Source: Leucoraja erinacea
Lineage: Eukaryota
Length of the DNA: 64,000 nucleotides
Direction of reading: 5' to 3'
Assembly (NCBI RefSeq): GCF_028641065.1
Contig: NC_073390.1
Span: 33,728,001 to 33,792,000 of the forward strand
In this document: positions 1,645-63,667 of the stretch, piece after piece
Layout: each line of letters starts with the position of its first letter
How positions within the stretch are numbered: the stretch's first letter is position 1
The notes under the pieces: generated by a model
The model's database searches: none
What the model saw: the letters and a program-made list of their open reading frames with translations, nothing else
What the model was told of the DNA's origin: nothing
Made by a program: the position numbers and the translations under genes

Positions 1645-1836
1645 GCGTAGGAAAGAACTGCAGATGCTGGTTTAAACCGAAGATATGCACATAAAGCTGG
1701 AGTAACTCAGCGGGACAGGCAACATCTCTGGAGAGAAAGAATGGGTGACGTTTCGAGTCGACACAAAATGGCACCCATTTCTTCTCAGAGATGCTGCCTG
1801 TCCCGCTGAGTTACTGTAGCTTTTTGTGTCTATCTT
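1645..1836. mobile_element. Palindromic Penelope-end (pLTR)-derived mini-element
   Basis: Inverted arms (AGCTGGAGTAACTCAGCGGGACAGGCAACATCTCT ... AGAGATGCTGCCTGTCCCGCTGAGTTACTGTAGCT) resemble the Penelope 3' ends at 10665-10753 and 33461-33548. Flanked by a perfect 14-bp direct repeat CTGATCAATAAGAT (1631-1644, 1837-1850). Confidence 0.8.
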
Positions 1837-1984: not shown

Positions 1985-2173
1985 TCCCCTTCTCCTCCCC
2001 TTCCTATCTCTCCCTCAGCCCTCGGGCTTCTCCTCCTCCTTTTTCCTTTTTTCTCCCCGCCCCCCCCACCCCCCGTCAGTCTGAAGAAGGGTTTCGGCCT
2101 GAAACGTTGCCTATTTCCTTCGCTCCATAGATGCTGCTGCACCCACTGAGTTTCTCCAGCTTTTTTGTGTACC
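1985..2173 (+). mobile_element. 5'-truncated Penelope 3' UTR/pLTR fragment with hammerhead-like core
   Basis: Pyrimidine tract followed by CTGAAGAAGGGTTTCGGCCTGAAACGTT, near-identical to 33465-33547. 10-bp TSD TATGAGAAAT (1975-1984, 2174-2183). Confidence 0.85.
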
Positions 2174-9772: not shown

Positions 9773-10753
9773 GTCTACGCCGCATCTTCGCCCAGGATAG
9801 TGTATGCCGCATCTGCGCCCAGGATGAGGTGTTCCATACTAGGGCATCGGAGATATCCTCATTCTTTAGGAAACAGGGGTGTTCCCTTCTTACATTATAG
9901 ATGAGGCTCTCACAAGGGTCTCCTCAATATCCCGCAGCTCCGCTCTTACTCCCCCTCCCCCCATTCGCAACAAGGACAGAGTCCCCCTTGTCCACACCTT
10001 CCACCCCATCGCATTCAGCATATAATCCTCCAACATTTTCACCACCTGCAACGGGATCGCACTATTGGCCACATCTTCCCATCTCCACCCCTTTCTGCTT
10101 TCCGCAGAGACCGTTCCCTCCAAAACTCCCTGGTCAACTCGTCCCTTTCCACCCAAACTACCTCCTCCCCGGGTACTTTCCCCTGTAGGAGATGCAACAC
10201 CTGTCCCTCGACTCCATCCAAGGACCCAAACAGTCTTTCCAGGTGAGGCAGAGGTTCACTCATCTTTCAACCTCATCTACTGTATCCGCTGTTTCAGGTG
10301 TCAACTTCTCTACATCGGCGAGACCAAGCACAGGCTCAGCAATCATTTCACTGAACACCTCCGCTCAGTCCATCTTAACCTACCTGAACGCCCGGTGGCT
10401 CAGCACTTCAATTCCCCCTCCCATTCCCAATCTGACCTTTCTGTCCTGGTGCTCCTCCATTGTCAGAGTGAGGCCTAGCGCAAATTGGAGGAACAGCACC
10501 TCATATTTTGCTTGGGTAGTTTACAGCCCAACAGTAGGAACATTGACCGCTAACTTCAGATAGGCTTTGCTTTCTCCCTCCATCCCTTTCCCCTTCCCAG
10601 TTCTCCCACTAGTCTTACTGTCTCCGATTACAAACTATCTTTGTCCCGCCCCCTCCCCTGACATCAGTCTGAAGAAGGGTCTTGACCCGAAACGTCACCC
10701 ATTCCATCTCTCCAGAGATGCTGCCTCACCCTCTGAGTTTTTTGGGTCTACCT
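9773..10753 (+). mobile_element. Decayed Penelope-like element (RT C-terminus, GIY-YIG, 3' pLTR)
   Basis: Collinear with 32555-33547. NLIYCIRCFRCQLLYIGETKHRL motif. Hammerhead-like CTGAAGAAGGGTCTTGACCCGAAACGTC at 10669-10696. Confidence 0.92.
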
Positions 10754-13499
10754 CGTGATGATCTCAGGTATTTATACGAAGTGATAGATTAGGGCGGTAG
10801 CGATAGATTAGGGGAGCAGAGTAAATGCAGGTGTAACTCCAAATAGCTCAGTGGAGGAGTGTGGAAAGAGTCTCAAGTCTCTGTAGGTGTGACATGTGTG
10901 ACACAGTAAGACTTTGCAAACATCCTTGAAGTGAGCTGATCGCTGTTATCTGTGCCTTGATGCTGAATATGTTGGCTTAAGAGATGAAGCTAATATTGTC
11001 CAACAGAGCATTTGGAGATTTTTTATTGGTAGTGTTGGGGATAATTTTCTAGTGTTTTAAACACATTGCTGTAAGTTATTCCATGTCTGAGTCATGTAAG
11101 AAGATTAGATAACAACTGCTCAGTAAACCAGGAGATTGGCATTGGGTTTGATGTCTTTGTCATCACATAATCTCCTCCTCAGGTGGGCAGAAATTGAAAA
11201 CAGTACTGAATATCATGGCTCTTCAATGCAGCAAGGGCTTTGGGACGATGCAGTGCTCATATTTCTAATGTTTCTTGGATTATGACTGGGTTATGTGGTA
11301 TCACAGGAGATAGTTGGCAATGGACTTCTGTTTTCTGGACATTTGTTTCACCCATGCTCTTAGGAATTTTGGTGAAGAGTGAGTAAAACTTCAATAATCA
11401 ACTATCAGACTATTCTTAAATACCGATGACATCTGGCTCTCTGAGTGCTGATTCCCGCTTTAAAATACCAGAACCCTGGTTGATGCCCATCCTCCCACTT
11501 ACCAGGGCCCCAAATCCCACCATTTCTTCCACTCACAGGGTGGCCCAAGTTGCTACACTTCCTTCCACTCGCTGGAGTTTCAGTTCTTGCAATCATTTTA
11601 AACTCATCTAATTCTGTCACTGTAAAAATTATGATTCTACAGCATGACAACTTAATAAAATGTATTATAAGTGTGTGGGAGTTACATTTACATGCAATTA
11701 CATCTCCATACAAATCCATTCATCCAGCACCACCAAAGTCCCACCTATGGTGGATTATCAGACCTCTGCTATATCTATGATGATCCAAATGTGTGCACAG
11801 ACAGATTTATTTTGTGTATTGTATTTGATTGATGTTGGAGTGATCTTGGCTTAGAGGTGGAGGTGGTGAACAGTTTCCTTAACTCCACGTTAGTAAGGAA
11901 TTTGTTGAAGATGGGGTCACGTATGGTGGCAAGGAAGATTAGGGAGATAGTTGGCGATGAGCCAATCCGACTTGCTTGGAACAGATGAAACTATTGAAGT
12001 ATGAAAACATGTTTAGGATATTTAGTATGTGAATTCACAGGCACAGTTCTTCATCTGGGAAGAGGAGAGCATACTAGGAGGCCAGGATTATGATAATCTT
12101 CAAATTTGATCATGGTATATACTGTGGAATAATCCCGTTGTCTGCCACAGGAAAAATAACCACAACAAAGACCACCTTGCATTGATAGAAATGCTCTTCC
12201 CAGTCATCACAAGGTCAAATCACAATGGATATGATCATTAATTTATAATAATGCCAGTAAAGGTGTGGAAGGAGCTATAATCATTACACACAAAAACTTT
12301 TAATTCCATTAGCCAGAGAGAGTTATGATTAAAAATTCTCCTCAAATTTGTGCATCCAGAAAAAATATTACAAGCTTTACTTCAGAAGAACATGCATTCT
12401 TACCAATGGATCCATCATGGACCTGGTTCTTTATTAATCACATAGAAAGGGAATGCAATTGAGCTCCACTACAAGGGAATATAATACAAACACTTTGAAG
12501 GGAAGTCATACACACATTACAAATAAAACATTTTGAGCTGTGGGTATTACTGACAACTGAACATGTATTGGCCCTTGAGAAAGTGGGAGTAAGTCACGGT
12601 TTGAGCCGCTGTAGTCATCATGGTGAAGAGGGTCACACAATAGAGCAGGAGTTTCAAGATTTGCACCAAGAAATATTGAAGGGGCAATGAAATATTTCTA
12701 CGTCAGGCTGATGCGTGACATAGAGGGAAACTTATAGATGGCCCCAAATGATCTCTGCACTTAATTCAATAACATCTCCAGACAAAGCAATTCATCCAGC
12801 ACCATAGATTTGGGAGGTTCTATTGGAATAAGCAAGCAAAGTAACTGTAGCGCAATTTGTAAATGGCACACAGTGCAGCTACAGCACTTGGTTGGTGGGG
12901 GGAATCAATGTTTAGGTGGTGGGATGTGTTGCCAATCAAGCAATCCTTGAGGAGAGGAAGGTGCTTCAAATAGATAACAAGTGAATTTCATACAACACAC
13001 CTCCAGAGAATGTAATACGACCACATAGTAAGGAAATACAATAGAAATACATAACCTTGGCATTAAATATCCCCAACAGTTTACAGAGGCGGAATGGTGG
13101 AGTGCAGCACATATATTGTCGCTTGTAGGGCGATTGAGAATCCGATGGCTCACAATGGATTTTGTTAAGGCATTTCTGAAACATCGACCAGTCACATAAC
13201 GGACTACCAGATGAACCATCTGTTTAAATAATCCGGTTGATGTGACAGGCGACATCGGAGTCAATAAATCAAGGTATTATTTTATGCGATTTTCTTTTGT
13301 TGCGACTGTTTAATCAAACACCATGAGCTTCATTCTGGACATGCCTCGTTTCTAAATTGAACCATGCTTAGACATTCACGTGAAATATTTCTCAAAAGGA
13401 AAGCTTTTCTCAAATTCCGCGCTCCAATTATTTTAATAGGTTTCTTCAAAAATGGGTGTTGTTCGTTCGAGACTGTAGACACCTCCATTATTTAAATAT

Positions 13500-15300: not shown

Positions 15301-15359
15301 CGGCAATATTTATTTTTAATATTATTCTGTATAAGAAATTATTCTGTATAATTATTCTG

Positions 15360-15442
15360 TATAAGAAAGGACTGCAGATGCTGGTTTAAATCGAAGGTAG
15401 ACACAAAATGCTGGAGTAACTCAGCGGGTGAGGCAGCATCTA
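15360..15442 (-). mobile_element. Penelope-end fragment (single arm)
   Basis: GACTGCAGATGCTGGTTTAAATCGAAGGTAGACACAAAATGCTGGAGTAACTCAGCGGG matches the left arm at 1650-1730. Preceded by TATTCTGTATAA repeats. Confidence 0.7.
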
Positions 15443-17076
15443 TCTTTATTACTTGGTAATAAAGAGGAAGAATGTAAAGAATTAGAAAATGATAAACAGT
15501 GAAAAAAGACAAACTAAGACAAAAGACAAACTGCTTTTTTTTTGTTCTTTAATTTCAATTGAGCCTAATTTAATCCAATCTTAACAGTTGAAATACTTTT
15601 TCCACCATCTTAGTCAACATTACCACCAGGAAAAAGATGTCATTCCAGTTCCAGTGGACATCCTTCCTTTATGGAAGCAGTAGTTCATTAAAACAAAGCC
15701 CTGCTTTCCCAACCAGTCCCTTTTGCTATATTTTTCCATTTCTAGAATATGCCCATCATCCATGACAATGGTTATCCCTAACTGTCTCTGAATTGAGTAG
15801 CTTGCTGGTATTTCAGGGGGTAGTTAAGGTAGTTAAGAGGATGGTGAATGCCTAGAATGACATGTAGGCAGGACCAAATAAGGATGGTAGATTTCCTCTC
15901 TTGAAGAATTGAAGTGAACTGGATATTTGTTTACTACAAATGATTGCTGTATGATGAGCATAACTGAAAATAGCTAGCTTTAGTTTAAACCATTAGATGG
16001 ATTTAAATTCCCCAACCACCATGAAGGGATTCCAACTGAGGTCAATGGTTCAAGGTTCTAATGCGTCCAGTAAATTAGTCACTATACTACCCAATTTTGA
16101 TCTGTTTCTTTCTACGTTAATTAATATTTGGTTTTGCCAGTTCCATTGCTAGCAAACAGGCAATTATTTGCCAATTATTGTTCATAGTTATGCTTTTCTG
16201 TACACTTCTCTCCTAATAAAAACCCCTATAACCATCACATTGAACATTCTGCTCTTATCCTCTTGATCGCCTTGAGTGATGATGTCTGGGTCTTCATTAT
16301 CCCTGTGCTTCAATATTTTAATCATCCTTTGCATGAAGATTTATTAATTTCTCATCTCCCTTTCAATTTCTTTTGCAATTATTTAAAAATTATATCCTCT
16401 CATTATTATTTTGTGAACTAGTGAAACCAATGCCTTATTATTTATTCATGGCTCTTGATCACACTGAAGACATTATTCTGATTACTCTAAATTCCAAGGG
16501 TCTTTAAATCATAGATCCAGATAATGTTACATATCAACCACTTGCTTGAAATCTAGGCATTCTATATGGTTGATGTATAACAGCAATGATCATTGTACAG
16601 AAAAAAATATTTCTATTCAATCAATGCTAATATTTTTTTTATCTCAGTATTTTGGTGGTTTATTAAAGTTCAAAGTTCAAGTCCTAAATTTATTTTATTC
16701 TCAATTAACAATAACTTTACGTACACATTACAAAAATGCCCTTGACATATGTGCTATACTGTATTAGTCTGCATATGTCTGGGACATGAGTTAAATTTAT
16801 ATTATGAAATAGATTTCTTAATGAACATGCAGGTACAGCAGGCAGAGAAGAAAGCAAATGGCGTGTTGGCCTTTATAACAAGAGGAATCAAGTATAGGAG
16901 CAAATAGGTCCTTTAATTTTAGTGCTGAAGATAGAAATATATTTATTTTCTCACCTCCCTCTCAATTTGCTGATTGCAATGTCTGAATATGATAGGATGC
17001 CTAAATGTATATTTCCTAATGCAAGAGTGATGATTATGTCAGTATGTAAATGGGGATGAAAATGTATAAATAATGC

Positions 17077-17093: not shown

Positions 17094-17113
17094 AGAACAT
17101 ATAACGTATTACA

Positions 17114-24801: not shown

Positions 24802-25005
24802 CACAAGAACTGTAGGTGCTGGAATCTTGAGCAAAACGCAAAGTACTAAACTATCTCAGCAGATCAGGCAGCATCTACAGAGAAAATAGGAATGGATAAG
24901 CAATGTTTCAGTCAGGACCCTTCCTAGCCCGAAATGCCATCAATCCATTCTCTCCAGAGATGTTTTCTGACCCACTGAGTTATTCCAGCACTTTGTGTTT
25001 TGCTC
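24802..25005. mobile_element. Palindromic Penelope-end mini-element (older)
   Basis: Inverted arms GAGCAAAACGCAAAGT.../...ACTTTGTGTTTTGCTC. 14-bp TSD AAGTGGCA(T/A)TGAGT (24788-24801, 25006-25019). Confidence 0.72.
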
Positions 25006-31443: not shown

Positions 31444-33348
31444 CGCCTCAACTTCTCCACTCCCCTGTCTCACTCCAATCTCTCACCACAGGAACGCTCT
31501 GCCATCGACTCTGCCATCGACTCACTCCGCAACAACCCAGATTTGGTTATCAAACCCGCTGACAAGGGAGGTGCCGTGGTAGTCTGGCGCGCCGATCTCT
31601 ACAAAGCTGAGGCCACGCGCCAACTATCGGACACCTCCTCCTACTTACCCCTGGACCATGACCCCACTGACGAGCACCAGGCCACCATCTCCAGCACCAT
31701 CACCAACTTCATCCACTCCAATGCCCTACCCGACCAAGCCTCCAACCTCATCGTTCCCCAGCCCCGCACAGCCCGATTTTACCTTCTCCCTAAAATCCAC
31801 AAACCTGATTGTCCCGGAAGACCCATTGTCTCCGCCTGTTCATGCCCCACCGAACTCATTTCCAAATACCTTGACTCCATCCTATCACCCTTGGTCAAAT
31901 CCCTCCCTACCTATGTCCAAGACACCTCAGACACTCTCCGTCGTCTCCGCGCATTCAATTCTCTAGGCCCTCACCCCCTCATCTTCACCATGGACGTCCA
32001 ATCACTATACACCTCCATCCCCCACCACGATGGTCTCACAGCCCTCCGGTTCTTCCTCGACCAGAGAAGCAACCCATACCCAGCCACTGACACTCTCCTC
32101 CACCTAGCGGAGCTGGTCCTTACCCTCAATAACTTCGAGTTCGACTCCTCCCACTTCCTCCAAATACAAGGCGTAGCTATGGGCACACGCATGGGCCCCA
32201 GCTATGCCTGCCTATTTGTAGGTTACGTCGAGCAATCCTTGTTCAATACATACCAGGGCCCCATCCCCAACCTCTACCTCCGCTACATCGACGACTGCTT
32301 CGGTACTACCTCCTGCACCCACACACAACTGACTGACTTCATCCACTTCACCACTAATTTCCACCCGGCACTGAAATACACCTGGACCATCTCCGACACT
32401 TCCCTACCATTCCTTGACCTCACTATCTCCATTGCAGGTGATAGACTTCTAACCGACATACACTATAAACCCACTGACTCCCATGGCTATCTGGACTACA
32501 CTTCTTCCCACCCTGCTTCCTGTAAGGACTCCATCCCCTACTCCCAATTCCTCCGTCTACGCCGCATCTGCTCCACGGATGAGGCGTTCCACACCAGGAC
32601 ATCTGAAATGTCCTCACTATTCAGGGAACGGGGGTTCCCCTCCTCCACCATAAATGAGGCTCGCACCAGGGTCTCTTCCATACCCCGCAACACTGCTCTC
32701 TCTCCCCATCCCCGCACTCGCAACAAGGGCCGAGTCCCCCTAGTCCTCACCTTTCACCCCACCAGCCATCACATACAAAAAATAATCCTCCGTCAGTTTC
32801 GCCACCTCCAACGTGACCCCACTACTAGCCACATCTTCCCATCTCCCCCCATATCTGCCTTCCGCAAAGACCGCTCCCTCCATAACTCCCTTGTCAATTC
32901 TTCCCTTCCCTCTCGGTCCACCCCCTCCCCGGGCACTTTCCCTTGCGGCCGCAGGAGATGCAACACTTGTCCCTTTACCTCCCCCCTCAACTCCGTTCAG
33001 GGACCCAAGCAATCGTTCCAGGTGCGACAGAGGTTTACCTGCATCTCTTCCAACCTCATCTATTGCGTCCGCTGCTCTAGATGTCAGCAGATCTATATCG
33101 GTGAGACCAAGCGGAGTTTGGGCGATCGTTTCGCCGAACACCTCCGCTCGGTCCGCAATAACCTAGCTGACCTCCCGGTGGCTCAGCACTTCAACTCCCC
33201 CTCCCACTCCGCCTCCGACCTCTCTGTCCTGGGTCTCCTCCATGGCCACAGCGAGCAGCACCGGAAATTGGAGGAACAGCACCTCATATTCCGTTTGGGG
33301 AGTCTGCACCCCGGGGGCATGAACATCGACTTCTCCCAATTCTGTTAG
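31444..33348 (+). CDS. Penelope RT + GIY-YIG endonuclease reading frame (N-terminus missing)
   Basis: KPADKGG, LPKIHK, GRPIVS, MDVQSLYT, QGVAMGT, YLRYIDD, a Cys cluster CGRRRCNTC, then LIYCVRCSRCQQIYIGETKR. The frame is open from the insertion junction at 31444; the TTG start at 31543 in the ORF track is an artefact. Confidence 0.9.
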   Translation, partial: RLNFSTPLSHSNLSPQERSAIDSAIDSLRNNPDLVIKPADKGGAVVVWRADLYKAEATRQLSDTSSYLPLDHDPTDEHQATISSTITNFIHSNALPDQASNLIVPQPRTARFYLLPKIHKPDCPGRPIVSACSCPTELISKYLDSILSPLVKSLPTYVQDTSDTLRRLRAFNSLGPHPLIFTMDVQSLYTSIPHHDGLTALRFFLDQRSNPYPATDTLLHLAELVLTLNNFEFDSSHFLQIQGVAMGTRMGPSYACLFVGYVEQSLFNTYQGPIPNLYLRYIDDCFGTTSCTHTQLTDFIHFTTNFHPALKYTWTISDTSLPFLDLTISIAGDRLLTDIHYKPTDSHGYLDYTSSHPASCKDSIPYSQFLRLRRICSTDEAFHTRTSEMSSLFRERGFPSSTINEARTRVSSIPRNTALSPHPRTRNKGRVPLVLTFHPTSHHIQKIILRQFRHLQRDPTTSHIFPSPPISAFRKDRSLHNSLVNSSLPSRSTPSPGTFPCGRRRCNTCPFTSPLNSVQGPKQSFQVRQRFTCISSNLIYCVRCSRCQQIYIGETKRSLGDRFAEHLRSVRNNLADLPVAQHFNSPSHSASDLSVLGLLHGHSEQHRKLEEQHLIFRLGSLHPGGMNIDFSQFC

Positions 33349-33460
33349 TCCTTGCTGTCTCCTCCCCTTCCTCAGCTCCCCTGCTGTCTCCTCCCACCCT
33401 CCAGCCTTCCGGCTACTCCTCCTTTTCCCTTTCTTGTCCCCACCCACCCCCACCCCTGAT

Positions 33461-33497
33461 CAGTCTGAAGAAGGGTTTCGGCCCGAAACGTTGCCTA
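33461..33497 (+). ncRNA. Minimal type I hammerhead ribozyme motif in the Penelope 3' pLTR
   Basis: CUGAAGA, extra A, stem II GGGU-UUCG-GCCC, GAAAC-GUU. Stem III is reduced to the palindrome ACGU, as described for minimal hammerheads of Penelope-like elements. Confidence 0.7.
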
Positions 33498-33752
33498 TTT
33501 CCTTCGCTCCATAGATGCTGCTGCACCCGCTGAGTTTCTCCAGCTTTTATGTGCTGGCCGTGGTTGTGCGCATGTGCAAGGCGGATGAGGAGCGAGCGGA
33601 GCCCGGCGGCTCAGACACGGATAGTGCAGGGAGATGGAGAGAGAGAGAGATATAGAGAGGGGGGTCCGCCCAGAGTTGAACGGTAGGTGTCCTGTCTTGG
33701 CCGGTGGCCCCCCTAGACCTCGAGGCCCTAAGCTTAAGCTTGTCTAGCTTAT

Positions 33753-34566
33753 AGGGTGATTTCACAAAAGGTCACTGGAGCATAGATCCGCACCCACGTG
33801 ACCGAAAATCTCAAGTGGAGGACATGCTAGACATCCGGTACATGTTAGTGGATGGGAAAACATGCACTTTCCCACCTGTTAAAAACATAGAAAACGGCCA
33901 GGTTTTGATCTGCAATTTATTGTGCCAGTCGGGGTGACCGTGAGGCACAGCTACCTAGATTTACAGTTTAAAAAAAAGATAGAAACTAAGGTAAATTAAA
34001 GAGGGAGCTGAAGGTGCCAATCCAGCGGAAGTGAACAGCGGACATTTGCCGTGGAGATTTAAAGGTCCAAAATATCGGGAATTATCGCGTTTCCTCACTG
34101 AATTTCATCAAAAGTAAGGCATTATTGACTTACTTTTGATGAAATTCAGCGAGCAAACGCGATCATTCCCGATATTTCATCAAAAGTAAGGCATTATTGA
34201 CTTACTTTTGATGAAATTCAGCGAGCAAACGCGATAATTCCCGATATTTTGGACCTTTAAATCTCCACGGCAAATGTCTGCTGTTCACTTCTGCTGGATT
34301 GGCACCTTCAGCTCCCTCTTTAATTTACCTTAGTTTCTATCTTTTTTTTGGACTGTAAATCTAGGTAGCTGTGCCTCACGGTCACCCCGACTGGCATAAT
34401 AAATTGCAGATCAAAACCTGGCTGTTTTCTATGTTTTTAACGGGTGGGAAAGTGCGTGTTTTCCCATCCACTAACATGTACAGGATGTCTAGCATGTCCT
34501 GCACTTGAGATTTTCGGTCACGTGGGTGCGGATCTACGCTCCAGTGACCTTTCGTGAAATCACCCT
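33753..34566. mobile_element. 814-bp fold-back (palindromic) MITE
   Basis: Arms 33753-34118 and 34201-34566 are near-perfect reverse complements (AGGGTGATTTCAC...GTGAAATCACCCT). The target site is readable as AT, TA or TATA. Central 72-bp tandem duplication. Confidence 0.9.
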
Positions 34567-34805
34567 ATAGGTAAATCCGGCCCTGGCAATGATCATATTG
34601 AATGGCGGTGCTGGCTCCAAAGGCCGAATGGCCTACTTCTGCACCTATTTTTCTATGTTACTATGTTTCTAACAAACAGGTTGTGTGTATGATTTCAGAG
34701 CACATTTCCAGCCCTCGATCTCTGAGGGCAGTACTTCTTCCCACTCTGACCAAGCACCTCTGAGGGAACTCAATGTTTTCTAACATGTAATGAGTCACTT
34801 TTACA

Positions 34806-36189: not shown

Positions 36190-36372
36190 AAACTTGCATC
36201 TCACCTATTACCTGCCTTGCCTGCCATGCCCATCCTCTCTTCTGGCTTTCTTCCCACCCCTATAATCAGACTGAAGAAGGGTCCCAACCCGAAGCATCAC
36301 CTATCCATGTTCTCCAGAGATGCTGCCTAATAACCCTTTGAATTACTCCCACACTTTGTGTCTACTTTGCAG
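36190..36372 (+). mobile_element. Penelope 3' pLTR fragment, degenerate hammerhead core
   Basis: CTGAAGAAGGGTCCCAACCCGAAGCATC at 36271, followed by TCTCCAGAGATGCTGCC. Confidence 0.7.
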
Positions 36373-36504: not shown

Positions 36505-36870
36505 TGCCCCTGTCCCACTTAGGAAACCTGAACGGAAACCTCTGGAGACTTTGCGCCCCACCCAAGGTTTCCGTGCGGTTCCCGGAGGTTTTTTTCAGTC
36601 TCCCTAATGGTCGAATGTGGTTTCCGCTTCTTCTATATTCCGGCGATTATTTCAAAAAATTCAAAACCGGCCACGACTAAAAATAGGTTGCCGTTTTAAA
36701 AATCGGTAATTTTTTACCTGAAGCCGGTTGCGATGCTAGTTGCAGGTGGTTGCCGGAGGTTGCAGGTGGTTGCCGGAGGTTGCAGGTAGTGGAAGGTCTT
36801 ACCTTCCACCACCTGCAACCTCCGGCAGACACCTTCAACCAGCATCGCAACCGGCTTCGACTAAATAAAT
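36505..36870. mobile_element. PIF/Harbinger-like MITE, right end missing
   Basis: TTA followed by TGCCCCTGTCCCAC, the same terminus type as 55795..56089. Internal hairpin 36720-36858 with GGTTGCCGGAGGTTGCAGGT repeats. No matching right TIR seen. Confidence 0.6.
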
Positions 36871-38237: not shown

Positions 38238-38388
38238 ACACAAACAACTACAGGTGCTGGAATCTGGAGCAAAAAATAAAATAAATTGCTGGGATCTTGA
38301 TTCAGGGGCTTGACCTAAAATATTGACACCCCTATACCTCCACATATGCTGCATGCCCATTGAATTCTTCGAGCAGTTTATTTTTTTA
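38238..38388. mobile_element. Old Penelope-end mini-element
   Basis: AACTACAGGTGCTGGAATCTGGAGCAAAAA arm plus a degenerate return arm (ATGCTGCATGCCCATTGAATTCTTCGAGCAG). Confidence 0.55.
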
Positions 38389-47100: not shown

Positions 47101-49290
47101 CCTTCCTCCCTTCTGCCTCATCAGACGGGCACTTCGCAATACAGAGGGATCTGTCTCCGAGATATTGAACGTGCCCGACCGGCCTACACAGCCATGGTTC
47201 CCAGTTCATCACGACACGGTGGGCGAGTCACCTATGGATTTCCCTAGTGGACCATGGTTGCTGACTCAACCCAGTATCAGGCACAAGCCACCCATGCCAG
47301 GGAAACATCAAACTCCTGGGTGCAGGGTTTGAATAGACCTTACCAGGGACTGGGATTATCCAAAGGAACCATTACCACCATGTCGGCATCCCTGCGAACA
47401 GTCACTAAAAGCTAACATGGGTAAAATACTGCCACGACGCAGGGACAACGAACTATTCAACCACTGACGTATTGGAGTTCCTGGAACATCTACACCATGA
47501 CTAAAAGGTGAGTTACAGTGCCGTAAATACAGCATGGAGCGCCTTATCTGCTTATCTAAAACAGCATGTCAGCAGAGCATGGGATCCCATCCACTGAAGG
47601 TATGAAGGGCAACTATAATATAAGCCCCAAACACCCAGGTATATACCCATGTATGGGATATTGGTGTGACATTGACATGTCTCAGAGATGGCACCAGCCA
47701 GATCCCTCAGCTTGCTTAATCTATGTTTTTAAAAAAACGCTCATGCTTATGGCTCTCGTACACGCTCACAGAGTCCAGTCACTCCATAAACCAGACTGGA
47801 TAACATGGTGATTACCCCAGACGCATCACGTTCATATTTAGGTCTGGTAAAATCTAACTCGCAGGTATATGGGACTAGGCGAGATTATGAGTTCGGCACG
47901 AACTAGTAGGGTCGAGATCGCCTGTGTTTCCCGTGCTGTAGTCTTTATATGGCTATATGGACCAGGAACGCCCAATTCACTGGTGGGATTCCGGGCCTAC
48001 CCACCAGAGTCCAGGTTGAGTGTGGTGACCCATCTACTACTATATATAGACACAACCCACAATCTTAGAGGGAGAGGAAAGCCTATGGGTCAACCACAGT
48101 AACCCAAGACGGGGTACGAGCCAAACCACTCCAAGGTGGCTCAAACAGGTACCGAAAGCTGCCGGAATAGATAATAAAGAGATTTAATCCCATTCCACTA
48201 GGGCAGCATTGGTATCAGCGGCTGAACGAATGGACATCCCGGTTGACCACATTTTCAATACAGCAGAATGGTCAAGGGAACGGCGTTCAGAACATTTTGT
48301 TTTTATTATAAACCGTTGATAAACCTGATTTAATTGCAGGAGAATATTACAAACTGCAATATTAATTTAAGCTCAGAGGAGCTCTTTTATGTTGTTATTG
48401 TTAACAAATACCTTTCTGTTTCTTTTGAAAGCAGATCAACTGGTTGATTACGATAACACTTCCTCCCTCATAAACTTCGGCAGTGAGTGAAATAAAAACT
48501 GTTACACGGTTTGAAATCACAGACCTTTGAAGTCTTCACGGAATCACTCACGTGACTCCGAAGTAAAATAGTTAGATTAAACGAGTACTTACCAGTATGA
48601 AGTTTGATCTGTATTTTATGAGGAGTTACGGTGAGGGATTAAGTGCCCGCCGCTCCCACCCTCATTATATAGATCAAGCTAATAAACTGATGTCTCGTGA
48701 TCTTTACTATCTTACTTCAAATATTGTGTCTATTCTGTGATTCCACACCGCTGCTTCGAAGTATGCCGCATGCGCAGTACCTGCTGGGTTCTTCACTTAA
48801 TCCCTCACCGTAACTCCTCATAAAATACAGATCAAACTTCATACTGGTAAGTACTCGTTTAATCTAACTATTAAATTCTTACCTGCTGCAGCTGATCAGG
48901 CACACCAATGCAATAATACACAAATAAATATACAATAATCAATAATGTAATAAATTCATATTCAGTAATATTGGCTAACCAGATCAGAATAGTCTAAACC
49001 TGAAGCTCATAGTGCAACCAAAAACAGTTCATTGAAGATCATAGTTGCTGAGATAGTGGTTTATGTTGTGTAATGTTCAAGAGCATGATGGTTGTTGGGA
49101 AGAAGGTGTTCTTGATCCAGGTGGTCACGGTTTTTAGGCTCCTGTACCTTCTTCTTAATAGCAGTAGCAAGATGAGAGTATGGCCATAGTCGTCAGGGTC
49201 TTTGACGATATTGGTTGCCTTTTTGAGGCACCTCCTCTTGTAGATCCCTTCGATAGTGAGGAGATCAGCACCCATGATGGACCTCATGTT
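44105..49290 (-). mobile_element. Rex1/Babar LINE 3' fragment split by the DIRS element
   Basis: Tail TCAAGATTGTTTTATTGTCATGTG...GGAACAAT (to 44150) resumes as AAATTCTTACCTGCTGCAGC (from 48873). ORF 49039..49287 has RRYRSLKTVTTWIKNTFFP. Confidence 0.8.
44149..48872 (+). mobile_element. DIRS1-like tyrosine-recombinase retrotransposon, complete termini, decayed ORFs
   Basis: ITR match 44179-44212 / 48763-48796. ICR 48533-48645 is complementary to the left end (44149-44185) and right extension (48794-48872). RT remnant FVSNIFTK..IIDLISLNKSVEYIHFKME, RNase H KTDASTLGWGA and VVAYINHMG, methyltransferase-like PPFCLIRRAL...PTQPWF, recombinase HSTRAA...TAEWS near 48190-48275. Confidence 0.93.
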
Positions 49291-54370: not shown

Positions 54371-54880
54371 TGAACAAACATTATCTAAGGTCACTGACAT
54401 GCAATAACGTCATAATCATTGAAGCGAATCCTGATATTGGGATGTCTTTTTTCAAAATAACAAGCTACTCATCAGAAATATTCAAAGCTCTATAAAGCAT
54501 CGAACAATGTTGATGAAATATGTCAGTCCATTAAAGCAAACCGCTTAGAATTTCAGCTGAAGCTGGTTTCTACTCACTTTTTGATGGCTGGTAAAAGAAA
54601 ATGGCCTAAATGTTACAGGGTAACACAGAGAGTTATTTATTTGTGTGGTCAGCTGCAATAATTGGTGGCGTCATTTGTAGATCATTATGGGAACTAACAC
54701 AATGCACCATATCCCAGGATTTCAGTGTCAGAATATGTTTCTAAAGGTAATATACTCTACTTATTGTTAAAGGTACTTGGCCGGATATTTAGATGCCAAT
54801 ATCTCTATCCACAAGTGAATCATCAACAGCTCTTTATCAACGTTCATATCAAAATGATGATCATTCATTTTAATGTTTAG

Positions 54881-55314
54881 TTTAGGAAAGAACTGCAGAT
54901 GCAGAAAATCGAAGGTATACAAAAAAGCTGGAGAAACTCAGCAGGTGAGGCAGCATCTATGGAGTGGAGGAATAGGCGACGTTTCGTGTTGAGACCCTTC
55001 TTCACACTGATGTCGGGGGGGAGGCGCATGAAAAAGAAAGGAAGAGGCGGAGACAGTAGGGTGTGGGAGAGCTGTGAAGGGGAGGGAAAAGAAGGAGAAA
55101 GCAAGGACTACCTGAAATTGGAGAAGTCAATGTTCATACCGCTGGGGTGTAAACTACCCGAGTGAAATAAGAAGTGTTGTTCCTCCAATTTGCGGTGGAA
55201 CTCACTCTGGCCATGGAGGAGGCCCAGGAGAGAAAGGTCGGATTCGGAATGGGAGGGGGAGTTGAAGTGCTGAGCCACAGGGAGATCAGGTTGGTTATAG
55301 CGAACTGGCGGAGG
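54881..55314 (-). mobile_element. Penelope 3' fragment (GIY-YIG end, pLTR with tail)
   Basis: Reverse complement of 33140-33547 plus the AAGAACTGCAGATGC extension. Hammerhead core mutated to GTGAAGA. Confidence 0.88.
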
Positions 55315-55794
55315 TCAATGATTCAATGTTTAAATCACTGGTGACATTGATACTGTTTTGCTTATTTTTTTCCCCCACTGGTTACCAGCTTCCATATTAT
55401 ATAATAAATAAAAATCAAAAAAACTCCAGATGCTTGGTCAAAAATAAAATACAGAGAATGCTGAAAACATCCAAGAGCTCAGCAGCTTCTGTGGAAACAG
55501 AACCAAGTTAACATTTCAGGTCAAAGCCCCTTTGTTATAACCCTGGCAGGGAGAAAGCAAGTTCACTTGTGTTTCCCTCATTCTCACTTCTGACAAAGAG
55601 TCCTCAACCTGAAACATCAAGGATTTCTCTCTGCACAGATTCTGCCTGACCTGCTGAATGTTCCAGAATTAGACGCATTATCTGAAATTCCTGTGTTGAT
55701 TTCCTTGATCAACCACAGTTTCTCTCTTCCTCTCTCTCTCCTTGCATGCACCACCCTTTATTTCTCTTGTGCTTGACTTTGAACTGTTGCTTAA

Positions 55795-56089
55795 AGGCCC
55801 TGCCCCACGATGCGAGTTTACCCAAGAGTTCCCCCAAGTTTAAAAATAATCAAACTCGTAGTAAGTACGTAGAATGTACGTAGCAGGTACGTCGGAGCTC
55901 GTGAATGTCTTGTAGCGGCTCATAATGCTAACGGCAGGTACTCGGGAAGCGTGGTAACTCGTGAAGTTTTTTTCAACAGTGTGAAAAATTTCCAAGAGTA
56001 AAAAAATACTCGTGATGAAGTAACACGAGTTTGATTTTTTTTTTACTCGGGAGAGCTCTTGGGTAAATTCGCATCGTGGGACAGGGGCT
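55795..56089. mobile_element. PIF/Harbinger-like MITE
   Basis: TIRs AGGCCCTGCCCCACGATGCGA / TCGCATCGTGGGACAGGGGCT with 3-bp TAA TSD (55792-55794, 56090-56092). Confidence 0.85.
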
Positions 56090-56611
56090 TAAGTCTTTGT
56101 GTTAAAGATAGTGGGACTAAGTGGGAGTTTTCAGACTTGACAGACCACCACAAGTGTACAGTCTCTCCATGCATGAGATAGCTTTTACTTACCTATTTTT
56201 TCCATCCCATTATCATGGGCAGGATGATCTGTATGTCCTCTTGGCTTCCTCATCTCTATTGAAGTAATGTTCAGAGTGTGCAGAGAATCATGTGGAAAAT
56301 GCCAAGTGCCAAGGAAAAGTTTATGTTTGCATTATTTGAGGTTTCTCTCAAATTGCTCAACAATGTGTATGATCAAATTCATCATTCGGTGACATCATGT
56401 TTACTTACATGTATTATAGATGATAAAGATGGGTCCTAAATTTTCTAAAATTATATCTCGGGTACAGGTTTAGTAACTTGTAAATTCTTTCAGATACAAC
56501 ATGAATTTCAAAATCTTCCTAAACCCAATTAAATTAAAAAAAACACTAATGTCTTATTAATTTATATTTATAGTGCTTAAAAATGCGTAAAGATGCCTTA
56601 AAGTGTTATAA

Positions 56612-57118: not shown

Positions 57119-58786
57119 TTGAACTTGTGAATTGCTTGGCTTCAGGCAGGTTATGGGAGAGGTTCTGCTAGATTTGACGTATTTTGCTTTGAGAGAACAG
57201 TTATATGGTAAATTACACAATTCTGTTCTGATCATTTAACATTTGTCTTCCTTGCCAAGGGCAAAGTACAAATAGTGGCTCAATTGCACATGTTTCCCTC
57301 ACTGTCAATAACAAACCTGACCAACCCAAGCATAAAGCGAGCTGTACTAACACTCACACAAGCATTTGACAATGTGATATCAAAATAAGATTTGACTTTC
57401 ATTATATAAAGCCATGTCCATTTCTAAAATAATAAAAAGTAAATATGATATAAAACTTCTAATTTGTGAATACTAATACTTTTAATGTTTTCCTTTATGT
57501 ATCCATTTTTAGGTGTGAACGTGCTAACTTTAAATTAATTAATACTAGAATAAAAATATCTCATACCAATAAACATTGCTATATGATGTTTTAAACCCTT
57601 GTTCAGTTTAAAACATTGAACATATTTTATATAATTTAATTAAAATCACGTTATATGTAATTATTGCAATGAAAGTCTTTGTGAAAAACATTTGGAGGTG
57701 GCTCCAATGGAGTTTTGATTTTGTTTATTATGTGAATCTCCCATCACTTGCACAACTCCGTAGTCAAAATTGGAAATGGGCACCACAAGCCAGATTGATC
57801 TCAATTGCATATTAACTCTAAATGTATTTAATATCTGCTGGTCTCTGCCTGCCCAAGTCTATGTGGGTAAGTGTAGTGGATTTTATAAATGATACCCAAT
57901 GCATGCCAGTGCCAGTGCCAGTGGAGGAGGGAATGAATAACTAGCAAGATGGTTATCTGTATGCCTAAAATGTCTATTTTATGTATGCAGTGATGTACTA
58001 ATTATCCTGACATTTAATGCTGAAGGTATTAATGTGAAAAAATATACACTGAAGGAACTATACCCTGGTACTAACCTAAAGCAAAAATCGGAGAAATGGG
58101 TGTTTCTATTTGTAGAATAAGAAAATGCTTCCTTAAATTGATTTCAACAATTGATTTAATGTCAAAAGATTATTAATGGACAGCATATTAAATGATAATA
58201 AAGTTGTTCCTTAATGTGAATATCAATCTGAATGAGCCTTTCGATGAAAGTGAATTAATGTCTTCTCACCCACTCTCGCCAAGAGCAAGCTGCATGCCTA
58301 TGTGTAAAACAAAGTGTAAGAGACCAATTTGAAATAATGATCCCCAATGATGAGCAAATTAAACAATAAAAAAAACAAATTTGAATGATTGCCTTAAATA
58401 TTGACTGAAATGAATACTTCAACCCACATCTCCTCCTTCCCTGAAGCTGATGCGCTTATATCATTTTTCTCCAGAGATGCGGCCTGACCAGCATTCTGAT
58501 GTCTATCTTTAGTATAATCCAGCATCTTCAGTTTGGTTCTAGATTCTGGAGACTATGAGTTGAGGATTCAAGACATAATTTCTCTAGCTTGATGCTTAGC
58601 CGGAGAAGTTTAGGAAATTGAATCTGCTTTTTCCAACTGTGAGGTTCAGATCGACAAAGGTTTGAATGAATGTTGCCATGCCGTGAGGATGATGCAATTA
58701 TTAGTAATAAGTGGAACGTCTGGAGGCTGGAAGTGAAATAAATATTTGATTCATTTGGCTATCTTGTCCCCTCATATAGTCAGAAA

Positions 58787-59849: not shown

Positions 59850-60848
59850 AAAGCTGGAAAAATGTGGATGAGATGTACAAAGCATGATTAGTAAGTTTGC
59901 AGTTGACACTAGAGTGATTGGTATTTATAGAAAGCAAAGATGGTGGTCAAGAATTGAAGCAGGATCTTGATCAGATGGGCTGAGACTTTTGGCACATTGT
60001 TCTTCTTCAATCAGGGAATTGAGTATAGAATGTTTAAGAAGGAACTGCAGATGCTGGAGAATCGAAGGTTACACAAAAAAGCTGGAGACACTCAGCGGGT
60101 GCAGCAGCATCTATGGAGCGAAGGAAATAGGCAACGTTTCGGGCCGAAGCTTTTCGGTCTGTAGAAGGGTTTCGGCCCGAAACGTTGCCTATTTCCTTCG
60201 CTCCATAGATGCTGCTGCACCCGCTGAGTTTCTTCAGCTTTTCAGTGTAACAATTGAGTATAGAAGTTGGGAGGTCATGTTGCAATTGTACAAGACATTG
60301 ATGAAGCCACATTTAGAATATAGTATTCAGTTTGGTTACCCTGTTATAGAAAATATGTTGTTAAGCTGGAAAGGGTGCAGAAAAGAATTACGAGGATGTT
60401 GTCAGGACTCGTGGGCCTGAGCTATAGGGAGAGGTTAAACTGGTTAGGTCTATTCTTTGAAGCGCAGGAGGATGAGGGGTGATCTTGTATACAAGATCAT
60501 GAGAGGAATAGATAAGGTAAATACAAAGTTTTTTGTCCAGAGTAGGGAAATCGAGAAACAGAGAACATTGGTTTAAGGTGAAGAGTGAAAGATTTAATAG
60601 GAACCTGAGGGGCAACTTTTTTACACTGTGTGATAGGTGTATGGAACGAGTCAACGGAGAAGGTAGTTGAGGCAGGTACTATTCCAACATTTAAGAAACA
60701 TTTAGGTACATGGATATGCTAGATTTAGAGGGATATGGGCCAAATGCAGGCAGGTGGTACTAATGTGGATGAGGCATGTTGGCCGGCGTGGACAAGTTGG
60801 ACTGAAGGGCCTGTTTTCATGCTGTATGACTCTATGACCCTATGACTA
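59850..60848 (+). mobile_element. CR1 3' fragment interrupted by a Penelope mini-element
   Basis: AGTAAGTTTGCAGTTGACAC, IEYRSWEVMLQLYKTLMKPHLEY and a (ATGACTCT)n tail. Confidence 0.9.
60031..60251. mobile_element. Young palindromic Penelope-end mini-element
   Basis: Near-perfect inverted arms matching 33478-33547. Perfect 14-bp TSD AATTGAGTATAGAA (60017-60030, 60252-60265). Confidence 0.92.
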
Positions 60849-62989
60849 AATTTTAGATGAATAACTTACTGCATTACTGACCTGGTGTGATTTAAGCAGA
60901 GAAAATGTGTCATCTGACATTGATTACTTTTATATTGAGCTGAAACATGGCTTTTTGGAAGATATCCTATGTTGGATCTCTGTGGAACAGTGCAATGGGC
61001 AACTTGGGCATGGGTTTGTGCCTTTGGCTTATCAACCTGGCAGCTGACCAGGCCATCAAACTGGTCAATGGAAGAAGAAAATAATGTCAGCTTTCCATTA
61101 TAGTTGACTGCCCTATCCCTGGATTCACCATCACTGTTGTCTCCTTTTATGGTTGTATTTAATTATTCTATTGAGCACTGGACTGTGAGTTCCACACTGC
61201 CTGCACTCCAATGAGCTGTAAAGACTAGACTGGATGGCAGATAGTGCTTTCTGCATCCTGTTAGCACATATATTTGAGGTTTCCTTGATAAGTAATATTG
61301 CATACTGTGTAGAAGGCACACTCAGTCCAAAACCAATGTATCCAATTTGCCAAAATTATATACACATGAGATTTAATTTAAAGATACTCATTGTAGAAGT
61401 GATTCTACTGAGTGCAATTTATTACATGATTGATTGCTCGTTGTGAATGGAAAAAGTACATTGTGTGCCTGGATTTGAATTTTCAATTTTAATATGTGGT
61501 AAAGAATTATGTACAAATGTGATGATGTAAACAGCAGATATTTTCCAGAATCATATTTTCACCTTAAATTGTGTTTACAGATAGACATGAGGGTTGCAGA
61601 TTTTACAGTTAAGGTTATTTTTTATTACATTGTTTTTATTTATTTTTTTCTGTTGTAAGTCAATTCACAAAATATAAACTATCCCTCATCACACTTCTCT
61701 GGTTAAACAAAAGGTGGAACAACAGCCTCAACGATCTCTTGGGAAGAGGACCTACTGGTTCCCAGACCCCAGGAGATCACGACAAACAAAGCCTGAACAA
61801 ACCTTCCCTACTTTCTGAATATCTCCAGTTAGTGTATCTTTCTCACTAAGCCTCTTTTCATCAATAGCTGATCCCCATTTTTCTCTCCTGCTTCATTACT
61901 GCTTTTCAAAAATTATTTTTGATTTCCTTTTGCTGAGAAGGGACATGATAGAAGCACAGATTTTGGAACATGCTAGCAATTCATTGTACAATCATATGAT
62001 TTTTTTAGGTTATTTAAAAAAGCCAACTATTAATCATGCACATATTATGAACAAGAGTCATGAGTTAGTCCATTATTAATTATGCAATAGTTTAGAATAT
62101 TTGTAACAGCCAGACACAATCTAGATAATGCCATGAATTTAAACTACAATAATTTAGTTTGGATCTTGAATATTCCTGAATTTGCAGACTTTAATCATGT
62201 CAGTCCATAGAAAATGCATAGTGTGTACAAAACACTAAGGAGAATTGTTGAATGACATGAAAATGGTTCAGCATTTCCTCTGCAAAATATTTAAGGACCC
62301 ATTCATAATTCATATGACTTCTACGAATTATTCAATTAATGGGAGAGGAGAGAAGAAGAATTTGCGGTACTCTTTTCAAAATGATTAAAAGTAAGATGTG
62401 TCGGGGAATTTAGCACCATTTTAAGAATCTAATTAAATCAAAAAATGATTAAGGCTGTGAAATGTAGCAAGGGTTTAAGGTTTAACAGTTTGAGTGATCG
62501 GCAAACTCCCTAAAGACACAAAAGGTGATGCTGAAGGGCAGAGCCAAAAATATTAACAGAGACAGACTCGACCATAGAGAACTGCTGGACAGTATTCATG
62601 AGCAGAGGTCAAGAGGAAGAACAACGAATGAAAATGAAACAGAATAAACAGAAGCGCTATTAACAATGGCATAACATCAATAAGAAATAACATGATCTAA
62701 TTGCAAAATAAAATTAAGAATGAAAGGAAACAAGCAATAATTAATTGGATTAATTTAGGTGAAAAGAGATAAAATAAAGCAGTAAATTGTAAACGCTTCT
62801 GATAATGTTAACAATTTAAAATATTCCCTAATTTTATACAATTATGGTGCAGTTTTGCAGCAATGGTATTGCTCTTTCATTCCTGCTCCAAATGAAGAAG
62901 AAAAACTAGGAAGCAGCTGGAGCCTTGGAATGATTATTGAGGTTTTATTTCACAGAGGGGACTTTGGTATTGGGACTAATAAACCAATT

Positions 62990-63183
62990 ATAGACATAAA
63001 ATGCTGGGGTAATTCAGCAGGTCACGCTGCATCTCTGCAGAAGAGGAAGAGTTTCTGTCTGAAAAAGGGTTCTGACCCAAAACATCACCTATTCCTTTTC
63101 TCCAGAGATGCTGCCTAACCCGACGAGTTACTCCAGCATTTTTTTTTTTGTCTATCTTTGGCATAATCCAGTTCCTTCCTAAC
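62990..63183. mobile_element. Palindromic Penelope-end mini-element
   Basis: TAGACATAAAATGCTGG... / ...CCAGCATTTTTTTTTTTGTCTA arms, degenerate hammerhead core, 9-bp TSD AAACCAATT (62981-62989, 63184-63192). Confidence 0.75.
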
Positions 63184-63667
63184 AAACCAATTGACAGAGA
63201 CAAAGAACATCAAATTCATGTAAGAAACAAAAAAATAAGTTTTTGTCCAGAGTAGGCAAAACCTTTTATCACCAAGCATATGAATTATTAGATATAAATT
63301 GTTCTGAAATTGTGACTGCACTTTTAGTAAGAAAGTAAAGAAATTTTTAGATTAATAAGTTTCCCTGTTATTTTTCTTCTTCGCCACTCGCCTTTGCCGC
63401 ATAACTCACTTTGTCGGAGACAGGACATTCTTCATGCAAGCAATATTACAAGGTATGGTCAGCAGCATGTAAAATGGGATTTTGAGTTTGTCTACTGTCC
63501 ACAAGTATATTTCAAAGAACCAGCCTCGAACATTCAATGAATCTGTGAATAATGTTTTCACTTTCTAATATTTCATAGTATCCTTTGGCTTTTGAGTATT
63601 TTTTCTTCTTTATTTCACACCATTGGAGAGTTAAATGTGAGTTCCTATACCCAAATAGTTTACATAA

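What the first reader, a model, noticed from the sequence alone, without database searches (positions are those of the whole stretch)
60017..60265. Dispersed family of about 200-bp hairpin retro-insertions built only from Penelope ends
Seen: at least four insertions (1645-1836, 24802-25005, 60031-60251, 62990-63183) consist only of two inverted copies of the Penelope 3' end. One arm carries a 30-40 nt extension (e.g. AAGGAACTGCAGATGCTGG...), and each has its own 9-14 bp TSD. The 60031 copy interrupts a CR1 cleanly and its arms match the young Penelope at 33478-33547. Known: Penelope-like elements can form inverted pLTRs with a tail extension. Inference: these are either a MITE-looking but RNA-mobilised non-autonomous family, or recurrent abortive Penelope integrations. 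The arms turn around at or near the hammerhead motif, which may link the ribozyme to how the hairpin forms. Copies of different ages suggest repeated generation.
Basis: partly seen in the sequence, partly recalled or inferred. Interest (0 to 1): 0.75.

Follow-up and report, generated by a model that had tools for sequence, protein, structure and literature searches.

The report
Fold-back stubs of Penelope retrotransposon insertions
Four ~200-base hairpin-shaped inserts in this likely shark or ray genome are head-to-head pairs of the very end of a Penelope jumping gene, each likely left by a separate failed insertion rather than spread as a family, so the pattern is mostly ordinary, though its fixed "one tail per hairpin" layout hints at how these elements likely insert.

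Summary
All four hairpins (1645-1836, 24802-25005, 60031-60251, 62990-63178) are two head-to-head 3' ends of a Penelope-like element (PLE). One arm carries a 23-37 nt tail, and each insert has a 14-bp target-site duplication (TSD), not 9-14. This is the published PLE anatomy (inverted 5' copy, tail at one end, TSD) cut down to its minimum. A self-spreading family is not supported: the four share 54-74% identity and have four different junctions, and 60031 is 97% identical to the young ORF-bearing PLE. Junctions also vary within families in metagenome loci. Ribozyme cleavage does not set the turn: all four tailed arms run through the cleavage site, and solo copies are truncated in the same zone (p=0.92). 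One new point: 12 of 12 TSD-bounded fold-backs carry exactly one tail, and arm ends match solo-copy ends, which fits both arms being primed separately at the element's two start sites. A symmetric fold-back class at one palindrome may recur at high copy in relatives; this was not resolved. The scan reported the same pattern earlier in two other shark-type genomes.

The parts
60017..60030 (.). left TSD (14 bp) of the main hairpin
   Evidence: exact repeat of 60252-60265
60031..60067 (-). 37-nt tail, on this arm only
   Evidence: matches the tails at 54880 and 15358
60068..60148 (-). tailed arm: PLE 3' end, equals 33477-33553 (97%)
60149..60153 (.). junction; fits an asymmetric switch (score 105) or a symmetric fold-back on 33464 with a 3-nt loss (score 102)
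60154..60251 (+). tail-less arm: PLE 3' end, equals 33460-33548 (97%); hammerhead core changed at one conserved base
60252..60265 (.). right TSD (14 bp)
59940..60850 (+). older LINE copy interrupted by the hairpin (CR1-like; label recalled)
1645..1836 (.). hairpin, tail 35 nt on the left, symmetric turn on a 4-nt palindrome (ref. 33478-33481); TSD 1631-1644 / 1837-1850
24802..25005 (.). old hairpin, tail 27 nt on the left; TSD 24788-24801 / 25006-25019 (1 mismatch)
62990..63178 (.). old hairpin, tail 23 nt on the right; TSD 62976-62989 / 63179-63192 (1 mismatch)
31444..33548 (+). young 5'-truncated PLE with open RT + GIY-YIG frame (to 33348), CX4CX2C linker (Neptune/Nematis-type), no tail, no inverted arm; 16-bp TSD 31428-31443 / 33549-33564
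33465..33492 (+). minimal hammerhead-like motif (core, bulged A, 4-bp helix II, palindromic helix III; helix I only 2 bp); palindromes at 33456-33463 and 33460-33468 beside it
1985..2173 (+). solo truncated PLE end of the young subfamily, no tail, 10-bp TSD
9800..10756 (+). older solo truncated PLE, no tail
15358..15443 (-). solo PLE end with tail, about 85 nt
36253..36361 (+). older solo PLE end, no tail
54880..55315 (-). solo truncated PLE with tail; possible 11-bp TSD (1 mismatch)
55448..55679 (.). fifth, much older PLE-end fold-back; no TSD found
   Evidence: (score 66, best of 200 shuffles 43.5)

Best explanation
Each hairpin is two head-to-head copies of the last 60-130 bases of a Penelope-like retrotransposon between 14-bp target duplications, and each was likely left by its own abortive insertion, in which both cut target strands likely primed short cDNAs that were then joined. 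Inferred steps: the element's GIY-YIG endonuclease nicks both strands about 14 bp apart. One nick primes at the distal start site (arm with tail) and the other at the proximal start site (arm without tail). Both cDNAs stop early, as most solo copies do. Being the same strand, they can pair only at self-complementary words, which are dense around the hammerhead, and join there; repair fills the TSD. The product is likely dead on arrival. I put independent origin at about 0.8 and, given that, two primings over single-cDNA fold-back at about 55:45.
For: Shown: anatomy and TSDs. Four different junctions. Hairpin-to-hairpin identity 54-74%; in the tree the arms of 60031 group with the solo young copies, though only 1 of 13 inner branches is strongly supported. 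Junctions differ within metagenome families, e.g. L067 -97/-110, L120 -21/-35, L036 -106/-251; L012 -196/-94, L112 -35/-20. The 3 opposite-strand joints among the 15 listed in the read lay have depth 34-68.5, like the other low-depth joints, against 1600-1716 for two repeated joints. Two end classes are shared by hairpin arms and solos: 44-47 nt (one solo 35) and 72-82 nt from the GATG box. Exactly one tail in 4 of 4 window and 8 of 8 TSD-bounded metagenome fold-backs, while solos are 8 tailed of 12; 8 of 8 has p=0.0015 if each arm chose independently. The tail-less arm reaches further 5' than the tailed arm in L048, L067 and L089, so neither arm contains the other. From papers: the anole PLE protein cuts and extends both strands, starts at two sites that bound the tail, needs RNA beyond them, does not need ribozyme cleavage, and is predicted to be a dimer (PMC11167929); palindromes at inverted junctions (PMC3846280).
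Against: No whole genome was held, so n=4 in this organism. One arm reaches the same palindrome (33460-33468) in 3 of 4 hairpins. In run X1, the loose-end consensus before 33460 (208 contigs, agreement 0.37) ends in the reverse complement of 33469-33478, the mark of a recurring symmetric fold-back, and 33475-33524 is about tenfold deeper than the ORF. The joint table hid 161 rows and under-counted X1. Losses at the hairpin tip after insertion could also make arms non-nested; 60031 fits both models. The anole data are for the Poseidon clade, and this element has a Neptune/Nematis-type linker. The metagenome set required an intact core on one arm. PMC11167929 saw no strand difference in start sites, which does not predict a one-tail rule.
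Confidence: 0.72

Rival explanations
1. Independent by-products, but made by fold-back: one cDNA (or an antisense template) self-primes at a palindrome, copies itself back, and the endonuclease resolves it at the proximal site.
For: Symmetric turns on palindromes at 1645 and L043 and the symmetric signal at 33464. It gives one tail per unit directly. Self-priming is proposed in PMC3846280 and endonuclease resolution in PMC8557442.
Against: The tail-less arm holds 5' sequence missing from the tailed arm in L048 (by 62 nt), L067 and L089, which needs a later deletion. Tail-less solos end at the same place as tail-less arms, as expected of a true start site.
Confidence: 0.35
2. The hairpins are a self-propagating, RNA-mobilised non-autonomous family (a retro-MITE), possibly one per PLE subfamily, with the turn fixed at the palindrome upstream of the hammerhead.
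For: Three of four have an arm reaching 33460-33470. Sharp depth step and symmetric loose end at 33459-33463 in relatives. Tandem non-autonomous PLE derivatives are reported (bioRxiv 10.64898/2026.07.22.740005).
Against: Different junctions and 54-74% identity. No shared junction pair among the resolved metagenome fold-backs. Low agreement (0.33-0.47) of sequence upstream of 33459-33463. The sense arm would be locked in a long stem. By analogy with the anole element, the insert lacks the RNA beyond the tail that the protein needs.
Confidence: 0.15
3. Hammerhead self-cleavage makes the RNA end at which reverse transcription runs off and turns.
For: All eight inner ends lie within 33 nt of the cleavage site; one (62990, tail-less arm) is within about 2 nt.
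Against: All 4 tailed arms and 3 of 4 tail-less arms cross the site. Solo and fold-back starts do not differ (11 of 15 vs 10 of 12 within 30 nt upstream of the core). Ribozyme mutants do not change insertion in vitro.
Confidence: 0.05
4. They are DNA-transposon MITEs that happen to resemble Penelope ends.
For: Long inverted repeats, short length, no coding, uniform TSD length in the window.
Against: A 23-37 nt tail separates one arm from the TSD, so the ends are not inverted repeats. Arms are 97% identical to a PLE 3' end. TSDs in relatives vary from 12 to 16 bp. A 14-bp TSD fits no DDE superfamily I recall.
Confidence: 0.02

Closest known systems
Complex insertions of endonuclease-positive PLEs: inverted pLTR or inverted 5'-truncated copy, tail at one end, TSD (PMC3846280; PMC8557442 Fig. 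2 legend; PMC8969392)
   Same: Head-to-head inverted copy, one tail, TSD, overlap or palindrome at the junction.
   Different: No ORF or internal sequence at all; about 200 bp; TSD 14 bp against 8-10 bp in the rotifer examples.
Dispersed minimal hammerheads of PLEs, including pairs 100-700 bp apart on opposite strands (PMC4209133)
   Same: Same minimal motif; opposite-strand pairs tied to truncated PLEs; seen here in L037 and L043.
   Different: In the four window hairpins at most one arm carries the core, and it is mutated.
Poseidon element of Anolis (PAc), in vitro (PMC11167929)
   Same: Two 3' end classes about 35 nt apart; both-strand priming would explain two arms.
   Different: Different clade; the parts read do not address inverted products.
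Non-LTR retrozymes (bioRxiv 10.64898/2026.07.22.740005)
   Same: Short non-coding PLE-end derivatives with a hammerhead.
   Different: Those are head-to-tail tandems with intact cores; these are single head-to-head units with broken cores.
L1 twin priming (recalled, no call)
   Same: Two primings at a staggered cut give an inversion with microhomology at the junction.
   Different: In L1 the inverted parts are different segments; here both arms copy the same 3' end.

Membership tests
EN+ Penelope-like element insertion | Source element with PLE-type RT and C-terminal GIY-YIG | tested here: met
   RVT_1 E 6e-7; GIY-YIG E 4e-4, 21.1 bits, just under the 22.6 cutoff; 2387 homologues, 16 or more of the 120 listed with PF01541
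EN+ Penelope-like element insertion | Inverted copy at the 5' side, head-to-head | tested here: met
   4 of 4
EN+ Penelope-like element insertion | 30-40 nt tail at one end | tested here: met
   35, 27, 37, 23 nt; older copies shortened
EN+ Penelope-like element insertion | Variable-sequence TSD | tested here: met
   14 bp in 4 of 4; 0 of 600 by chance
EN+ Penelope-like element insertion | Minimal hammerhead motif in the terminal repeat | tested here: met
   Strict core in 3 solo copies, matching the description; helix I only 2 bp; activity untested; not detected by Rfam
Neptune/Nematis PLE clades | CX2-5CxxC linker upstream of GIY-YIG | tested here: met
   CX4CX2C in the frame; definition
Neptune/Nematis PLE clades | RT phylogenetic placement | not tested
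   no labelled reference set fetched
MITE (DNA transposon) | Inverted repeats at both termini, next to the TSD | tested here: not met
   tail between arm and TSD on one side, 4 of 4
MITE (DNA transposon) | Cognate transposase element with the same ends | not testable with these tools
   no genome held
Non-LTR retrozyme | Head-to-tail tandem units, each with a complete hammerhead | tested here: not met
   head-to-head; no intact core in 4 of 4
Non-LTR retrozyme | Circular RNA | not testable with these tools
   no suitable library; one search used oligo-dT and single-cell reads
Self-propagating non-autonomous family | Many copies with one junction and shared private substitutions | tested here: inconclusive
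   not met in the window or in metagenome families; symmetric class unresolved

The most novel reading that the evidence does not exclude
The symmetric fold-back centred on the palindrome at 33460-33468 is a self-propagating retro-MITE: a non-coding palindromic RNA that the Penelope enzyme copies in trans, amplified about tenfold over its parent in cartilaginous fish, with 60031 as a decayed member.
Probability: 0.15. Interest if true: 0.6.

Novelty: new member of a known kind. Interest (0 to 1): 0.27.

Why it matters
As elements they are ordinary debris, though they can be misfiled as MITEs or microRNA hairpins (sub-threshold mir-559 hit). Their value is as footprints. How PLEs make inverted ends and one-sided tails is stated as open in PMC8557442. 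These stubs are short and numerous, and they give three simple rules to test in a genome or in the in vitro system of PMC11167929: one tail per hairpin, arm ends equal to solo ends, junctions at palindromes and not at the cleavage site.

Tried and rejected
No own genome was held, so the genome-wide junction table could not be made. The exact family pattern found 0 loci in metagenome contigs. Rfam found no hammerhead; the 17 hits were all below gathering score, mostly generic hairpin models. Monomer folds of the motif did not give a hammerhead and were no better than shuffles, as expected for a minimal dimer-type motif. No RNA holder was listed for the 60031 locus; this says nothing on expression. 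No pile-up of read ends was listed in the RNA runs (table 6); these libraries are poorly suited to show cleavage. RNA reads on the PLE end come from many copies in another or unconfirmed organism and do not show that the hairpins are transcribed. Solos at 15358, 24613, 29926 and 36253 have no inverted partner (p 0.17-1.0); 38275 and 58382 are borderline. Earlier-finding look-ups by sequence and place were empty. Eight paper searches listed no paper whose title or opening abstract names ORF-free PLE hairpins as a class or proposes twin priming for PLEs; Repbase, Dfam and subscription journals were not searchable and supplements were not read.

Full report
Setting. The window is 41% G+C vertebrate DNA with an AMER-family gene (17105-20251; PF09422). 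The highest-identity named homologues of the retroelement frame come from sharks and rays (65-73%), so the host is likely a cartilaginous fish. No genome was held.

Observation. The four inserts are real inverted repeats. Each lies between a 14-bp direct repeat with 0, 1, 0 and 1 mismatches. None of 600 random pairs gave such a repeat. Each is two head-to-head copies of the 3' end of the element at 31444-33548, with 23-37 unpaired bases on one outer end only. The 60031 arms are 97% identical to that element. Its empty site reads as a continuous frame of an older LINE (the name CR1 is recalled). The source element has an open frame with RT, a weak GIY-YIG match and a CX4CX2C linker, which marks the Neptune and Nematis clades. 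It has its own 16-bp TSD, no tail and no inverted arm. Solo truncated ends also occur at 1985, 9800, 15358, 36253 and 54880, and a fifth, older fold-back at 55448-55679.

Family or by-product. In coordinates of the young element the inner arm ends are 33477/33460 (60031), 33460/33495 (62990), about 33470/33481 (24802) and 33478/33478 (1645), tailed arm first. All four differ. Identity between different hairpins is 54-74%; the arms of 60031 group with the solo young copies; the tree is weak, with 1 of 13 inner branches strongly supported. For an outside test I scanned metagenome contigs for the hammerhead core and got 123 loci of host DNA, organisms not determined. 35 of 123 had some inverted repeat; I inspected 20 and 16, of which 11 were resolved or nearly so and 5 (L064, L073, L113, L122, L018) were not. 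Within one family the turn varied widely: L067 -97/-110, L120 -21/-35, L036 -106/-251; L012 -196/-94, L112 -35/-20; L037 -16/-10, L048 -17/+45 (sense/antisense arm, relative to the core). No pair of resolved loci shared both ends; L043 and L062 came close. Laying two contig sets and two RNA runs on 32900-33620 listed 15 joints and hid 161. The three opposite-strand joints had depth 34-68.5 in 1-3 contigs, against 1600-1716 for two repeated 'goes back' joints. Against my reading: 33475-33524 is about ten times deeper than the ORF, with a sharp step at 33459-33463; and in run X1 the loose-end consensus before 33460 (208 contigs, agreement 0.37) ends in the reverse complement of 33469-33478. That is the mark of a symmetric fold-back on 33464, and 60031 fits it with a 3-nt loss almost as well as an asymmetric switch (102 vs 105). 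The step may partly reflect a variable C/T-rich spacer upstream. These runs hold 0.55 and 0.44 of the sampled words and may be other species. So a junction hot spot is likely, and a self-copying class is unlikely but open.

Role of the hammerhead. The motif at 33465-33492 matches the minimal type described in PMC4209133, with a strict core in three solo copies and in none of the hairpins. If cleavage set the turn, arms would stop at 33493. Seven of eight arms cross that point, including all four tailed arms. In the metagenome set, TSD calls were made for 24 of 100 eligible loci against 24 of 1373 mismatched pairs. Of the 25 TSD rows printed I kept 7 fold-backs and 12 solos and dropped 6 (L109 duplicate; L026 and L122 microsatellite; L093, L113, L123 uncertain); L112 was added. 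Starts of 15 fold-back sense arms and 12 solos did not differ (p=0.92; 11 of 15 and 10 of 12 within 30 nt of the core). The pattern required an intact core, so starts inside it could not be seen. The simplest reading is that most cDNAs die after 60-140 nt, which is where the motif lies, and that its palindromes (33456-33463, 33460-33468, 33478-33486, 33487-33492) supply pairing sites.

Mechanism. Two things are shown. First, outer ends fall in two classes shared by arms and solos: 44-47 nt from the GATG box without tail (one solo 35) and 72-82 nt with tail. Second, all 12 TSD-bounded fold-backs have exactly one tail (4 window, 8 metagenome), although solos are mixed, 8 tailed of 12; independent choice gives p=0.0015 for the 8. 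The arms are therefore coupled. Inferred: the enzyme nicks both strands about 14 bp apart and primes one cDNA at each of two start sites; both stop early and join at a self-complementary word. This leans on the anole element, which cuts and extends both strands, starts at two sites bounding the tail, needs RNA beyond them and ignores ribozyme mutations, but which belongs to another clade. The rival is fold-back of one cDNA with endonuclease resolution. Non-nested arms (L048, L067, L089) favour two primings, but later loss at the hairpin tip can mimic them, and in L012, L112, L037, 24802 and 62990 the tailed arm is the longer, as fold-back expects.

Comparison. An inverted 5' copy, a tail at one end and a TSD are the published anatomy of these elements, and opposite-strand hammerhead pairs 100-700 bp apart were noted in 2014. 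The stubs fail the MITE test (asymmetric ends) and the retrozyme test (not tandem, cores broken). Two earlier notes of this scan reached a similar verdict on other genomes; they are unchecked AI notes and are not counted as support.

Papers seen. PMC11167929: parts 1-2 of 4. PMC4209133: abstract and Results. bioRxiv 10.64898/2026.07.22.740005: part 1 of 5, passages, Discussion. PMC8557442, PMC3846280, PMC8969392, PMC5753468, PMC7599744: passages only; the last two added nothing. No supplements were read; those of PMC11167929 and PMC3846280, and repeat databases, may already list such stubs. L1 twin priming and DNA-transposon TSD lengths are recalled.

Verdict. Real, of a known kind, most likely independent abortive insertions. 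Interest 0.27, for the testable one-tail rule and the unresolved symmetric class.

Noticed in passing
lay, 33502->33469 and 33505->33473: High-depth joints (1600-1716 in X1; the first also in both RNA runs) go back 33-34 nt, pointing to a PLE subfamily in relatives with a tandem duplication of helix II and the cleavage box, which could allow an intramolecular dimer ribozyme.
   Followed up: no
window 31234-34563: GC-rich element with short terminal inverted repeats that hosts both the young Penelope and the 33750-34569-area MITE (nested insertions).
   Followed up: partly
window 33750-34569: Long fold-back with 396-nt arms (95%), TA at its ends and an inner 72-nt duplication; unrelated to Penelope; looks like a DNA MITE.
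   Followed up: no
window 48567-48872, 55794-56090, 36710-36868: Three other short inverted-repeat elements; 55794-56090 is flanked by TTAA (piggyBac/Kolobok-like, recalled).
   Followed up: no
window 55448-55679, 38275-38387, 58382-58530: Older decayed PLE-end fold-backs or candidates; the first is significant, the others borderline; no TSD found.
   Followed up: partly
window 17105-20251: Single-frame 1048-aa AMER-family gene (PF09422).
   Followed up: no
window 60252-60256 and 62985-62989: In two of four hairpins the tail-less arm abuts the same 5-mer AATTG in the TSD, echoing the ATT cut preference reported for the anole enzyme; n too small.
   Followed up: no
window 15332-15361: The tailed solo at 15358 sits beside a short tandem triplication of flank sequence instead of a normal TSD.
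   Followed up: no
window 6534-8154: Decayed frames resembling a Gypsy-type integrase and RNase H on the minus strand (label recalled).
   Followed up: no
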